Assembly (NCBI RefSeq): GCF_965641715.1
Contig: NZ_OZ282453.1
DNA from: Escherichia coli
GTDB taxonomy: Bacteria > Pseudomonadota > Gammaproteobacteria > Enterobacterales > Enterobacteriaceae
DNA length: 64,000 nt
Direction: 5' to 3' (one strand)
Made by a program: the position numbers. Every line of letters starts with the position of its first letter. The stretch's first letter is position 1. Shown in pieces: positions 1-3,000 of this stretch.

Positions 1-3000
1 ATGGGTACAGGCCGGAGCATGGAAAGAAGTTGGATATTCTGAGGTTGATTTGAGCACAGCAGAAACGTATCCCTGCCCTGTACCCTGTGGGGAAATGACT
101 TATATCTTGCGGGTGATAGGTGATTCAATGATTGATGAGTACCGCCCGGGAGACATGATTTTTGTCGATCCTGAAGTACCTGCCTGCCACGGTGACGACG
201 TTATTGCATTGATGCACGATACAGGTGAAACCACCTTCAAAAGGTTGATAGAAGATGGGACACAGCGTTATCTCAAAGCGTTAAACCCAAACTGGCCTGA
301 GCCTTACATTAAGATCAACGGTAATTGCTCTATAATTGGAACTGTGATTTTCTCAGGAAAACCAAGAAGATACAAAATCAAAGCCTAATCAATGTTTATG
401 AACCTGCTTCGGCAGGTTTTTTTATACTTGACAATGTACCTATGAGATACATAATGTACCCAAGAGAAACAACAAACAGGCAGGACGCCCACGAAGTAGC
501 CGCCTGGGGCATATGAAGTCCAGGATGATTCGTTAGCAACAAAAAAGCGCCCTACAGGACGCTTAGCTCTTTAACAATCTGGATATCCACAACAGTAGTA
601 ATCTACAGATTGCCGTTAAGTTTTCTGGACAACTCCTCAATGGATGGAGGCGATACGTAATCCGGATTTTTATTCATCAGAAACTTATTTTCACAGTGGA
701 GGCACCTGCTTTTATGAAAAAGCTCATCTTCGCTAACCGGGAATGGTTGAAGTATCGATACTATCTTTTGTCCAAAACATTTTGGGCAAAGATGCATGGT
801 TATGCTGCCACCGTTCACGATTACCTCCTTCGAGTATACAAAAGTACCCGACTCAAGTTGGTTAAGGATATAGCCTTCCGTCTGAGCCTCAAAGTTTTCG
901 AATTCTGCAATTTTAGCTTTGAGAGAAGCATTTATTTCTTGATAAGAGCCCACCAGTTCAACGAGAGACACGCATTCGCGCTGAATAGACGCAAGCTTTG
1001 AGTTCAGCTCACCAATAGCCGCATTTACTTCAGCTTGAGTTTTTGCCTCGTTCATTAGTTTTGCAATCTGGGCTGTTTCACGAATAGCCGTCATTGCTGC
1101 CGTTAATTCAGCGATCACATTGAATACTCTTATTGTTGTTGGGGATATCCAGATTAACCGAATCCTTGTTGTTGGGGAATAACCAGGTCCACCTCGCCTG
1201 ATGTGGCTAAAAGCAGGCACATAACAGCTAAGTATTTTCAACCAGAGAGAATCCTTAGCGTTGTGGTGAATGCGGCTCAGCGCACGCGGGTTAAGGTTGA
1301 GGCTGACAGTCGACCTTCTGTGGATACCCACCCGCCTGGTGTGCAACCTTCGCCAGGCACCGGGAGGCACCCGGCACCACAACTTTATGCTGTGTGTAGT
1401 CCTGGCGGTACCAGTTTGTACCCTTGCTTCCGGCTGGTACCGTCCTTTTTTGCAAAACAGAGAAGAGCATCACCGGACGACGGGCTCATAACCCAATCCA
1501 TCCGGGCGGCTGCCACCGCAGGTGTTCTTCTCTGTTTTGTGGAGAAACCAACCGACCTTGCAGGGTCGATATGATGAGGAGCAGCAAAATGGCTAGCGAA
1601 CGCAGTACTGATGTGCAGGCATTTATCGGGGAGCTGGACGGCGGCGTATTTGAAACCAAAATCGGCGCAGTTCTCAGTGAGGTCGCTTCCGGTGTGATGA
1701 ACACGAAAACCAAAGGGAAGGTCTCACTCAATCTGGAAATCGAACCGTTTGATGAGAACCGTGTGAAAATCAAACACAAACTCTCATATGTTCGCCCAAC
1801 TAACCGCGGGAAAATTTCCGAAGAAGACACCACCGAAACGCCGATGTATGTCAATCGCGGTGGTCGCCTGACTATTCTGCAGGAAGACCAGGGACAATTA
1901 CTGACTCTTGCCGGTGAACCTGACGGAAAACTCCGCGCAGCAGGTCGTTAATATCGTTCGTAATAAACTGATTATTTATCTCATCACTGAATATCTTTAT
2001 ATAGTGAGGACTTATTATGTCTCAGAACTTAGACGCAACCGCAATTAATCAAATCCATGCCCTTATTTCTGCTCAGGGTGTTAATGAAATTATCAGTAAG
2101 ATTGGTGCCGATGCTGTGGCATTGCCTGAGAATTTCCGCATTCATGATCTGGAAAAATTTAATTTAAATCGCTTCCGTTTCCGTGGTGCACTTTCCACTG
2201 CCAGCATCGATGATTTTACCCGTTATTCTAAAGATCTTGCAGATGAAGGCACCCGCTGCTTTATCGATGCCGATAATATGCGTGCCGTCAGTGTGCTTAA
2301 CCTGGGTACTATTGATGAGCCAGGTCACGCAGATAACACTGCCACTCTCAAACTGAAAAAGACAGCACCGTTCTCTGCTCTGTTGTCTGTTAACGGCGAG
2401 CGTAACTCCCAGAAGTCACTGGCAGAATGGATCGAAGACTGGGCCGACTACCTTGTGGGCTTTGACGCTAATGGTGACGCCATTCAAGCAACAAAAGCGG
2501 CTGCGGCAGTCCGTAAAATCACGATTGAAGCAAACCAGACCGCTGATTTTGAAGATAATGACTTCAGCGGCAAACGCTCCCTGATGGAGTCTGTCGAAGC
2601 GAAGACCAAAGACATTATGCCAGTGGCATTTGAATTTAAATGCGTTCCGTTTGAAGGTCTGAAAGAACGTCCGTTTAAATTACGCCTCAGCATTATCACT
2701 GGCGATCGTCCTGTACTGGTTCTGCGCATTATTCAGCTGGAAGCGGTGCAGGAAGAAATGGCTAACGAATTTCGTGATCTGCTTGTTGAGAAATTCAAAG
2801 ACAGCAAAGTCGAAACCTTTATTGGTACTTTCACCGCCTGATTTCATTACTGCAAATGCCCCTGCGGGGGCATTTATGGAAACGTAATTAACTCAATAAT
2901 CACCGGATGGTGAGGGCTTCCTTTTACCAGAATTCAGCGCGGTGCAGTGCATATACGTGGAGAACAAAATGTCATTTATTAAAACTTTTTCCGGGAAGCA

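What the first reader, a model, noticed from the sequence alone, without database searches (positions are those of the whole stretch)
603..1178. Divergent moron gene (coiled coil plus zinc ribbon) next to the prophage repressor, with CCCCAACAACAA repeats in its 5' region
A minus-strand gene sits between the repressor gene and the early operon, a position where lambdoid prophages often carry superinfection-exclusion or defence cargo. It encodes a protein with a long coiled coil and a C-terminal CxxC...CxxC zinc ribbon. Two direct 12-nt C-rich/AAC-rich repeats lie just upstream of its start and could be a protein- or Hfq-binding translational control element.
Basis: partly seen in the sequence, partly recalled or inferred. 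Interest (0 to 1): 0.5.

Follow-up and report, generated by a model that had tools for sequence, protein, structure and literature searches.

The report
Rip1-family prophage defence gene cassette
A prophage gene lying backwards inside the early lytic operon encodes a relative of Rip1, a recently solved anti-phage protein that detects an invading phage's small-terminase ring. The "repeats" in front of it belong to a conserved antisense-RNA control module first described for the P22 sieB gene.

Summary
A minus-strand gene lies at 603-1118, with a GTG start and 171 aa. Two exact CCCCAACAACAA copies lie at 1133-1144 and 1166-1177.

The protein is not an orphan. It belongs to PHROG 1244 together with HK446 Rip1 ("ring interacting pore 1", PDB 9oox, solved on the T6 small-terminase ring), HK620 HkaP and Pseudomonas JBD30 gp30. 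Support: profile E 7e-20, hhalign 98.7%, Foldseek E 5e-7, four invariant Cys.

Like HK446 rip1, HK620 hkaP and lambda sieB, the gene lies antisense inside an early operon, downstream of a PL-like promoter at 428-455.

The repeats are part of a conserved 5' module. Its opposite (+) strand aligns end to end with the published 127-nt P22 sas antisense RNA. Across 23 variants, the hairpin around the distal repeat pairs far better on that antisense strand (44 G·U versus 6). The same module precedes more than 100 unrelated small cargo genes in viral contigs.

Most likely this is a lysogen-expressed abortive-infection protein triggered by small terminase. It would be silenced by antisense RNA when the phage's own early operon fires.

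Verdict: a new member of a known kind.

The parts
603..1118 (-). Rip1-family gene. 171 aa, GTG start. N-terminal helical hairpin plus C-terminal four-Cys zinc-ribbon/beta domain.
   Evidence: ORF. RefSeq CDS WP_000559922. Conserved N-terminus and four invariant Cys. PHROG 1244. PDB 9oox Rip1: hmmsearch E 7.2e-20, phmmer 2.7e-7, hhalign 98.7%, Foldseek E 5e-7 with TM 0.56/0.73. AF2 pLDDT 90.
1133..1144 (-). Proximal CCCCAACAACAA repeat. On the + strand it is the G-rich motif UUGUUGUUGGGG of the sas-like RNA. It overlaps the right arm of the inverted repeat.
1166..1177 (-). Distal CCCCAACAACAA repeat. It forms the loop (CCCC/GGGG) plus one strand of hairpin 1.
1164..1187 (+). Hairpin 1 of the sas-like antisense RNA: CCUUGUUGUU-GGGG-AAUAACCAGG. 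A 10-bp stem with a GGGG tetraloop.
   Evidence: 23 distinct variants. Antisense strand: 174 Watson-Crick, 44 G·U, 12 other. Sense strand: 174, 6, 50. Compensatory TA<->CG and GC<->TA changes occur at pairs 4, 5, 6, 8 and 10.
1189..1218 (.). Conserved 30-nt 'block'. On the minus strand it reads GCCTG-N7-CCAC-N-TCAGGC-NNN-GTGG, two interleaved inverted repeats with pseudoknot-like topology. It corresponds to the 3' part of P22 sas RNA.
   Evidence: Shared by lambda sieB, HK446 rip1, HK620 hkaP, SfIV, SfV and SfII. At least 120 IMG/VR contigs. Aligned with sas.
1108..1240 (+). Region homologous to the P22 sas antisense RNA. The ends are inferred by alignment only. It covers the complement of the start codon, both G-rich motifs and the block.
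   Evidence: P22 sas sequence from Table 2 of PMC13397905. Colinear alignment with 48 invariant columns in 7 sequences.
545..564 (-). Intrinsic terminator of the cargo gene: AAGCGTCCTGTAGGGCGCTT followed by TTTTTG.
   Evidence: Conserved or replaced by another hairpin in homologous cassettes.
576..601 (+). Left arm of a 26-nt inverted repeat (core AATCTGGATATCC). Its partner is 1130-1155.
   Evidence: Predicted flank-to-flank RNA duplex of -20 to -31 kcal/mol in 11 cassette variants, against about -11 for shuffles.
1130..1155 (+). Right arm of the inverted repeat.
566..577 (+). Exact rrn-type boxA consensus GCTCTTTAACAA on the early-operon strand, where the PL transcript enters the cassette.
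   Evidence: Its complement ttgttaaagagc is kept in all cassette variants, even where the terminator differs.
428..455 (+). PL-like early-left promoter with operator-like AATGTACC repeats (433-440, 453-460). Context: it drives transcription antisense to the gene.
   Evidence: D3. TGTACC half-sites also occur in the cI-cro intergenic region.
1..388 (+). 3' part of the CI-like (YmfK-type, S24 peptidase) repressor gene; its terminator is at 400-419. Context.

Best explanation
The gene encodes a Rip1-family abortive-infection protein carried as a self-contained cassette, lying antisense inside the prophage's early-left (PL) operon.

Shown:
- It is homologous in sequence and fold to HK446 Rip1.
- It has four invariant zinc-ribbon cysteines.
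- It sits in the same slot and orientation as rip1, hkaP and sieB.
- It has a conserved 5' module whose opposite strand is homologous to P22 sas RNA.

Inferred mechanism:
1. In the lysogen CI keeps PL off, and the cargo mRNA is made and translated at a low level.
2. When a foreign phage infects and produces its ring-shaped small terminase, about 12 copies of the protein dock on the ring through the C-terminal zinc-ribbon domains.
3. The N-terminal helices then form a membrane pore that kills the cell before progeny are released.
4. When the prophage itself (or a phage carrying the same module) transcribes its early operon, the + strand RNA across 1108-1240 acts as a sas-type antisense RNA. It carries two UUGUUGGGG motifs, one of them in a GGGG-loop hairpin.
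5. This RNA pairs with the CCCCAACAACAA motifs and the start region of the cargo mRNA and shuts off its translation, so the phage is not killed by its own terminase.

For: Protein:
- PHROG 1244, E 2.4e-58. The same PHROG holds HK446 Rip1, HK620 HkaP and JBD30 gp30.
- Profile against PDB gives only 9oox 'ring interacting pore 1', E 7.2e-20. hhalign 98.7% over 145 columns.
- Foldseek's only significant PDB hits are the 9oox chains, 28% identity, TM 0.56/0.73. The entry title is 'HK446 Rip1 in complex with T6 small terminase'.
- The four Cys, the VY motif and the ILQ motif are invariant across the four subfamilies.

What Rip1 does:
- It is prophage-encoded and blocks incoming phage. [quoted passage not shown]
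- It senses the small terminase.

Slot:
- rip1, hkaP and lambda sieB all lie antisense just downstream of N.
- Citrobacter and Klebsiella homologues are convergent with the S24 repressor gene. A Salmonella homologue lies antisense in the PR operon after cro.

Regulation:
- The P22 sas RNA sequence aligns colinearly with the window's + strand.
- sas is a cis-antisense regulator of sieB translation.
- Hairpin 1 shows 44 G·U pairs on the antisense strand against 6 on the sense strand, plus compensatory changes.
- No strong sigma-70 promoter was found on the + strand near 1080-1110, so PL read-through is the likeliest source of the antisense RNA.
Against: - No experiment exists for this subfamily. 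It is only 24-28% identical to HK446 Rip1, so its trigger could be a different ring protein, or a different set of terminases.
- The primary Rip1 paper was not in the searchable library. The mechanism therefore rests on a PDB title, a conference summary and one citing sentence.
- The promoter of the cargo gene was not identified. The only positionally conserved candidate, TTCCCC-17-TAATCT, is weak.
- For the window's own sequence, neither strand of the 5' module folds better than shuffles (z +0.86 and +0.23). The structural evidence is comparative only.
- The proximal repeat forms no convincing hairpin in this subtype.
- In P22, sas switches translation from SieB to an internal product, Esc. 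No equivalent internal product is evident here.
Confidence: 0.65

Rival explanations
1. The CCCCAACAACAA repeats are single-stranded CA-rich sites in the mRNA leader. They would bind Hfq (ARN-like AAC triplets), S1 or another protein and tune translation without any antisense RNA.
For: The sense-strand leader is not more structured than shuffles, so the motifs could be accessible. AAC-AAC fits an A-R-N pattern (read from the sequence).
Against: The sister module in lambda, P22 and HK446 has CCCCTACAG instead, with no ARN repeat, at the same positions. The flanks of the distal repeat covary as a stem whose wobble pairs only work on the opposite strand. The opposite strand matches a known antisense RNA.
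Confidence: 0.12
2. The repeats are DNA elements of the cargo promoter. The distal copy would overlap a -35 (TTCCCC) and the proximal copy would form the first ~15 nt of a ~25-nt leader, possibly as twin operator sites. This is compatible with the antisense model rather than exclusive of it.
For: The only promoter-like site at a conserved position in all window-type cassettes is TTCCCC-17-TAATCT, ending 32 nt before the start. It is TTCCCC-16-TATAAT in L083, and TAAAAT lies at the same distance in HK446 and HK620.
Against: The score is low in the window (4.9). No candidate binding protein is known. If the transcription start were there, hairpin 1 would not be in the mRNA at all. That does fit the finding that its structure is selected on the other strand.
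Confidence: 0.3
3. The 26-nt inverted repeat flanking the gene (576-601 and 1130-1155) marks an invertible or transposable cassette. The repeats would then be recombination sites.
For: Inverted repeat with 85% complementarity and an exact 13-nt core. The cassette occurs in several unrelated flanks.
Against: A probe for the inverted junction found no genome among 5,426 complete E. coli genomes with 80% or more coverage, although 1,588 genomes match parts of it. No recombinase gene is associated. The flanks are better explained as shared promoter/leader and terminator/boxA modules exchanged by homologous recombination.
Confidence: 0.04
4. The protein has the Rip1 fold but a different trigger or output. 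It might sense a portal or another ring, or act without forming a pore.
For: Only 24-28% identity to HK446 Rip1. The superfamily is large and diverse, with 2,753 50%-identity clusters at E<=1e-3.
Against: The alignment is full-length with the zinc ligands and core motifs conserved. The genomic slot and regulation module are the same.
Confidence: 0.2
5. The coiled coil plus zinc finger is a DksA/TraR-like RNA-polymerase-binding regulator, or a SieB-like membrane exclusion protein.
For: Superficial architecture only: helical hairpin plus C4 zinc motif, and the same slot as sieB.
Against: No Pfam hit to DksA/TraR or any other family at E<=1 beyond generic coiled-coil noise. Lambda SieB belongs to a different PHROG, 6399. 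All significant structural and sequence hits are Rip1.
Confidence: 0.02

Closest known systems
Rip1 (ring interacting pore 1) of Escherichia phage HK446, PDB 9oox
   Same: Same PHROG (1244). Same length class (164 vs 171 aa). Same architecture and predicted fold. The four Cys, VY and ILQ motifs are conserved. Both are prophage genes lying antisense in the PL operon behind the same conserved 30-nt block and two C-rich motifs.
   Different: 24-28% identity. A separate enterobacterial subfamily, with 21 clusters at E<=1e-30. The leader motifs are CCCCAACAACAA rather than CCCCTACAG. This prophage has no N gene upstream. An extra 3' module is present (inverted repeat plus boxA). Phage specificity is untested.
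HK620 HkaP (annotated 'putative superinfection exclusion protein') and Pseudomonas Mu-like phage proteins (JBD30 gp30, DMS3, D3112 orf25)
   Same: PHROG 1244 members with 27-29% identity. All lie antisense to their neighbours.
   Different: The Pseudomonas copies sit in the packaging-gene region, not the immunity region, and lack the block and repeats.
P22 sas antisense RNA / sieB-esc translational switch
   Same: The window's + strand 1108-1240 is colinear with the 127-nt sas RNA: complement of the start codon, two G-rich motifs, then the block. It has the same position relative to an exclusion gene that lies antisense in an early operon.
   Different: The cargo protein is unrelated to SieB. 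No Esc-like internal product is evident. Motif sequence and stems differ (GUUGGGG vs GUAGGGG). Expression of the RNA here is not shown. No Rfam family matched it.
Lambda SieB / RexAB-type prophage abortive-infection morons
   Same: Lysogen-expressed, membrane-directed abortive-infection cargo next to the immunity region. Lambda sieB uses the same 5' block and twin C-rich motifs.
   Different: Different protein families. RexAB lies between cI and PL on the cI strand, whereas this gene is downstream of PL on the opposite strand.

Membership tests
Rip1 family (PHROG 1244; HK446 Rip1, PDB 9oox) | Significant full-length sequence similarity to the solved Rip1 | tested here: met
   hmmsearch of a 32-sequence profile against PDB, E 7.2e-20. 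phmmer 2.7e-7. hhalign 98.7%, E 2e-16, 145 columns. Same PHROG 1244.
Rip1 family (PHROG 1244; HK446 Rip1, PDB 9oox) | Same fold: N-terminal long helices plus C-terminal beta-rich zinc-ribbon domain with four Cys ligands | tested here: met
   AF2 pLDDT 90. Foldseek to 9oox_L and 9oox_M at E 5e-7 and 7e-7, TM 0.56/0.73, with the next hit at E 0.34. The four Cys are invariant across subfamilies.
Rip1 family (PHROG 1244; HK446 Rip1, PDB 9oox) | Prophage-encoded, in a lysogen-expressed moron position | tested here: met
   Same antisense slot as HK446 rip1 and HK620 hkaP. Own terminator. Present in induced or isolated phages PhiR49_1 and PhiR29. Expression itself was not tested.
Rip1 family (PHROG 1244; HK446 Rip1, PDB 9oox) | Binds the small-terminase ring as a ~12-mer and forms a pore; protects against phage by abortive infection | not testable with these tools
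   Known for HK446 Rip1 only from the PDB title and secondary sources. No multimer prediction or assay was available here.
sas-type cis-antisense RNA (P22 sas) | Sequence colinear with sas on the strand opposite the exclusion gene's 5' end, including the complement of the start codon | tested here: met
   Alignment A6 of P22 sas (PMC13397905) with window 1108-1245 (+) and five other loci; 48 invariant columns.
sas-type cis-antisense RNA (P22 sas) | Conserved secondary structure on the antisense strand | tested here: met
   Hairpin 1: 218 of 230 cells paired on the antisense strand against 180 of 230 on the sense strand; 44 vs 6 G·U pairs; compensatory changes at 5 pairs. Type B leaders fold better on the antisense strand in 57 of 57 variants. 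The window's own fold is not better than shuffles.
sas-type cis-antisense RNA (P22 sas) | The RNA is made during lytic growth and switches translation of the exclusion gene | not testable with these tools
   Reported for P22. No transcript data exist for this prophage.
Classical 'moron' (autonomous promoter-gene-terminator unit) | Own terminator and own promoter | tested here: inconclusive
   The terminator at 564-545 (-) is clear. The only positionally conserved promoter candidate is weak, and the consensus scan found none on the minus strand.
SieB superinfection exclusion family | Homology to lambda/P22 SieB | tested here: not met
   Lambda SieB is PHROG 6399 and the window protein is PHROG 1244. 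No cross-hit in blastp of cargo proteins.
DksA/TraR C4 zinc-finger regulators | Match to the DksA/TraR zinc-finger domain | tested here: not met
   No such Pfam hit at E<=1 and none in NCBIfam.
Known defence systems in PADLOC-DB v2 (2023) | Match to any PADLOC model | tested here: not met
   Only a noise hit, E 0.063. The library predates Rip1.

The most novel reading that the evidence does not exclude
The 30-nt block plus G-rich/C-rich hairpin module may be a general, portable 'self-immunity switch'. On this reading, temperate enterobacterial phages place almost any toxic abortive-infection cargo (Rip1, SieB and dozens of uncharacterised small proteins) antisense in an early operon behind this module. 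The cargo is then translated only while the early operon is silent, and antisense RNA switches it off when the phage itself goes lytic. If so, the block would be a sequence beacon for finding new defence genes: 67 of 121 block-linked ORFs matched none of seven reference cargo proteins. The window's extra 3' module (rrn-type boxA plus a long-range inverted repeat) would be an anti-polarity or processing device that lets PL transcription cross the untranslated antisense stretch.
Probability: 0.4. Interest if true: 0.7.

Novelty: new member of a known kind. Interest (0 to 1): 0.45.

Why it matters
It assigns a family and a testable mechanism to a 'hypothetical protein' present in about 7% of complete E. 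coli genomes; 382 of 5,426 carry the whole 1.2-kb region.

It extends the newly described Rip1 family to a distinct enterobacterial subfamily, and to about 2,750 clusters overall.

It links Rip1-type genes to the antisense-RNA logic worked out for P22 sieB in 1993. The link suggests how a prophage can carry a terminase-triggered suicide protein without killing itself on induction.

The shared 5' module also offers a simple way to mine further prophage defence cargo.

Tried and rejected
- Pfam, NCBIfam and PADLOC gave nothing specific for the protein.
- The primary Rip1 paper was not found in the library despite five searches. One search on sieB/sas was wasted on 'Siebold' matches.
- Invertible switch rejected: no inverted junction in 5,426 E. 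coli genomes.
- A strongly structured mRNA leader was rejected for the window's own sequence (z +0.86). The + strand also has z +0.23.
- 5'UTR-3'UTR pairing as a strand-specific RNA feature is undecided. The duplex is strong on both strands, with the antisense strand better in 7 of 11 variants.
- The block as a sigma-70 promoter: no convincing hexamers on either strand. A TGnTATNCT-like motif follows the block in type A leaders, but it overlaps a covarying stem, which argues against it. No promoter for the sas-like RNA was found at a consistent position. Only a weak -10-like hexamer (GTTAAT, 1102-1107) lies where some homologues have GATAAT or GATAGT.
- A fixed-register covariation count on the type A MAFFT alignment was abandoned because stems sit in different registers. 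Per-sequence folding was used instead.
- An HK022 put-like reading of 1230-1453 was considered but never tested (no comparison with HK022 put was run). The weak Rfam STnc100 hit and a short match to phage P1 suggested a different lead.
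Full report
**Context.** The window begins inside a lambdoid prophage integrated at tRNA-Arg (5572-5645), next to fimZ. The first 5.6 kb are identical to E. coli 2014C-4587. RefSeq annotates that stretch as follows:
- a YmfK-type LexA/S24 repressor (window 1-388);
- a hypothetical protein on the opposite strand (603-1118);
- yfdP, yfdQ, yfdR, a phage protein, yfdT, a truncated HTH gene and intD.

Immediately after the repressor's terminator (400-419) lies the best promoter match in the region, TTGACA-16-CATAAT at 428-455. It is overlapped by two AATGTACC repeats. 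TGTACC also forms the palindromes in the cI-cro intergenic region. I read this as PL with its operators. The next 65 nt (468-534) are conserved in phages with other repressors (Kati, mEp460_4F5, SfII, ST64B). The gene in the finding is therefore downstream of PL and antisense to it. It is not between cI and PL.

**The observation.** The ORF, the coiled coil, the four-Cys zinc ribbon and the two 12-mers are all present.
- The conserved N-terminus MIAELSAAM in 32 homologues fixes the start at GTG 1116-1118, giving 171 aa.
- AlphaFold2 with that alignment gives pLDDT 90: helices 2-24 and 28-79, then a beta-rich domain.
- C111, C114, C139 and C142 are invariant.
- CCCCAACAACAA occurs exactly twice in the window, at 1133-1144 and 1166-1177 on the minus strand.

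**What the protein is.** Pfam, NCBIfam and PADLOC are silent. PHROGs places it in family 1244, 'unknown function'. A profile of 32 homologues searched against all PDB sequences finds a single significant entry, 9oox, 'ring interacting pore 1 (Rip1)', E 7.2e-20. The single sequence gives 2.7e-7. Foldseek of the model against PDB finds only 9oox chains L and M (E 5e-7 and 7e-7, 28% identity, TM 0.56/0.73). The entry is titled 'Cryo-EM structure of the Escherichia phage HK446 Rip1 in complex with the Enterobacteria phage T6 small terminase' and was released 2026-02-04. The next hit has E 0.34. hhalign against the HK446 protein gives 98.7% probability over 145 columns.

HK446 Rip1, HK620 HkaP and Pseudomonas JBD30 gp30 all fall in PHROG 1244. 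They share the four Cys, a VY motif and an ILQ motif with the window protein. An exhaustive profile search finds 2,753 50%-identity clusters at E<=1e-3. Of these, 1,022 reach 1e-10 and 21 reach 1e-30; the 150 best-scoring that were listed are mostly full-length proteins of 140-180 aa.

The primary Rip1 paper is not in the searchable library. What I can cite:
[quoted passage not shown] - A preprint states that Rip1 senses the small terminase subunit.

**Slot and orientation.** In HK446, rip1 lies immediately downstream of N on the opposite strand. HK620 hkaP and lambda sieB are placed the same way. Citrobacter and Klebsiella homologues of the window protein are convergent with the S24 repressor gene, as here. 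A Salmonella homologue (75% identical) sits just after cro, antisense to the PR operon. Being antisense to an early lytic operon is thus a conserved feature of these cassettes.

**The cassette.**
- Comparison with SfV, SfII, mEp460_4F5 and ST64B shows a variable cargo slot between the conserved 468-534 and 1189-1620.
- SfIV and Kati share 535-582 and 1135-1188 with the window but carry an unrelated minus-strand gene of PHROG 5286.
- Upstream of every homologue examined (45-99% identical proteins, many different flanks) the same 5' module recurs. It consists of a 30-nt block (GTGCCTG(T)CTTTTnnCCACnTCAGGCnnnGTGG), then ...TTATTCCCCAACAACAAGGATTCGGTTAATCTGGATATCCCCAACAACAA..., then a weak AGAG Shine-Dalgarno and the start codon.
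- Downstream, every homologue but one (L089) keeps GGATATCCAGATTGTTAAAGAGC, exactly or with a one-base change, followed by a terminator.
- Lambda sieB, HK446 rip1 and HK620 hkaP carry the same block followed by two ACCCCTACAG motifs.

**What the repeats are.** A 2026 small-RNA study of P22 prints the 127-nt sequence of sas, the antisense regulator of sieB (PMC13397905 Table 2). sas is described as a cis-antisense RNA that switches translation between the products of sieB. That sequence is the exact antisense of the module: the complement of the start codon, two GUAGGGG motifs, then the block. The window's + strand 1108-1245 aligns with it end to end. Seven sequences give 48 invariant columns, with GUUGGGG in place of GUAGGGG.

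The distal repeat is the loop and one arm of a 10-bp hairpin. On the + strand it reads CCUUGUUGUU-GGGG-AAUAACCAGG, 1164-1187. Among 23 distinct CCCCAAC-type variants, the stem pairs as follows:

| Strand | Watson-Crick | G·U | Other |
|---|---|---|---|
| Antisense (window + strand) | 174 | 44 | 12 |
| Sense (mRNA) | 174 | 6 | 50 |

There are also TA<->CG or GC<->TA exchanges at five positions. Wobble pairs that work on only one strand are the classic sign of which strand's RNA is under selection. Here that is the PL-direction strand. Per-sequence folding agrees: the antisense strand folds better in 57 of 57 two-motif leaders.

For the window's own sequence, neither strand beats shuffles, so the case is comparative. 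Rfam 15 has no family that matches this element.

**Mechanism.** Shown: homology to Rip1; slot and orientation; homology of the opposite strand to sas; strand-specific structure conservation.

Inferred:
1. In the lysogen PL is repressed and the cargo mRNA is translated at a low level.
2. An invading phage's TerS ring nucleates a Rip1-type oligomer whose N-terminal helices form a pore, which aborts the infection.
3. When the prophage's own early operon fires, the + strand RNA pairs with the leader and start region through the G-rich/C-rich motifs and stops synthesis. This avoids self-triggering by the phage's own terminase.

I found no convincing separate promoter for the antisense RNA, so PL read-through with processing is the likelier source. 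The cargo promoter is unresolved. The only candidate at a conserved position is TTCCCC-17-TAATCT, ending 32 nt before the start. It is TATAAT in L083, and TAAAAT lies at the same place in HK446 and HK620. That candidate would put the distal repeat in the -35 region and the proximal repeat at the 5' end of a short leader.

**Rivals.**
- Hfq or protein binding to CA-rich RNA is not needed. It does not fit the CCCCTACAG sister motifs or the strand asymmetry.
- An invertible cassette is rejected: no inverted junction in 5,426 complete E. coli genomes.
- DksA/TraR-like and SieB-like readings fail the homology tests.
- A different trigger for this subfamily remains possible given 24-28% identity.

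**Wider pattern.** These gave 115 distinct variants. The first ORF behind the block is extremely diverse. In 121 instances it was:

| Cargo behind the block | Instances |
|---|---|
| Window-type Rip1 | 9 |
| HK446/HkaP-type | 10 |
| SfIV_36-like | 14 |
| SfV 81-aa type | 8 |
| SfII_36-like | 3 |
| Lambda-type SieB | 1 |
| No match to these seven references | 67 |
| No ORF | 9 |

(Counts; PHROG assignments.) Leaders fall into two types:
- One-hairpin type: loop UUCUCACACAA with covarying stems abutting the Shine-Dalgarno sequence.
- Two-motif type: as in the window.

 This suggests a portable regulatory module for toxic prophage cargo. I did not find it described as such, but my literature access was limited.

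**Verdict.** The protein is a new, divergent member of the just-characterised Rip1 family. The repeats are the mRNA-side image of a sas-type antisense RNA module. This is ordinary in kind but well worth annotating. The general module behind it is the more interesting lead.

Noticed in passing
window 566-577 (+): An exact 12/12 rrn-type boxA consensus, GCTCTTTAACAA, lies on the PL-direction strand, just after the cargo terminator hairpin, where the PL transcript enters the ~530-nt untranslated antisense stretch. Its complement is kept in all cassette variants even when the terminator differs. This prophage has no N gene, so it may protect PL transcription from Rho-dependent polarity (my inference).
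   Followed up: partly
window 576-601 (+) and 1130-1155 (+): A 26-nt inverted repeat (core AATCTGGATATCC) brackets the gene. The predicted flank-to-flank RNA duplex is -20 to -31 kcal/mol in 11 cassette variants, against about -11 for shuffles, and is strong on both strands. It is not an inversion switch. It could be an RNase III site or a 5'-3' UTR clamp.
   Followed up: partly
IMG/VR loci L100-L219 (e.g. L103, L106, L119, L146, L166, L188): The 30-nt block GCCTG-N7-9-CCAC-N-TCAGGC-NNN-GTGG precedes more than 100 very diverse small ORFs. These include zinc-ribbon proteins of 66-76 aa and small proteins with hydrophobic, membrane-like N-terminal stretches. 67 of 121 matched none of seven reference cargo proteins. 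It looks usable as a beacon for mining prophage defence or exclusion genes.
   Followed up: partly
window 1230-1453 (+): Weak Rfam hit to sRNA STnc100 (40.3 bits, gathering score 47), starting where the sas-like region ends. It contains CACCGGGAGGCACCCGGCACCA. A 32-nt stretch (1259-1290) matches phage P1 at 94% identity; the P1 region was not examined, so whether this RNA resembles a known P1 RNA is untested. RefSeq places a 'frameshifted hypothetical protein' pseudo-CDS over it (window 1263-1574), which is probably not a gene.
   Followed up: partly
window 428-471 (+): A PL-like promoter (TTGACA-16-CATAAT) carries two AATGTACC repeats, with TGTACC palindromes also in the cI-cro region of L001 (5235-5324). 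These are probably the operators of the YmfK-type repressor. The 468-534 leader is conserved across phages with different immunity.
   Followed up: partly
L002 (phage SfV) 3386-3631 (-): An unannotated 81-aa minus-strand ORF (PHROG 3311) starts right behind the block with a good Shine-Dalgarno sequence. It overlaps the annotated + strand orf33 (3172-3468), so the SfV annotation of this slot may be on the wrong strand.
   Followed up: partly
L011 (Salmonella contig) 3892-4600: The same Rip1-type cassette (block, repeats, gene, inverted repeat/boxA, terminator) is inserted just after cro, antisense to the PR operon instead of PL. The cassette therefore moves as a unit between early operons.
   Followed up: partly
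L010 (Pseudomonas phage JBD30) 2501-2995 (+): The PHROG 1244 homologue gp30 lies antisense between gp29 and the 550-aa gp31. gp29 is a DUF1804 protein with an N-terminal HTH. The large-terminase region is adjacent in the related phage Forsyth. A terminase-sensing gene next to terminase genes is intriguing. It has no block or repeat module.
   Followed up: partly
window 1102-1107 (+): A -10-like hexamer, GTTAAT, lies on the antisense strand inside codons 4-6. Homologues have GATAAT, GATAGT or GAAAAT at the same place. A start a few bases downstream would match the 5' end of P22 sas. This may be a weak dedicated promoter for the antisense RNA and may constrain the conserved N-terminus.
   Followed up: partly
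window 5650-64000: The rest of the window after tRNA-Arg is E. coli chromosome, beginning with fimZ, sfmF and the fimbrial genes. It was not examined.
   Followed up: no
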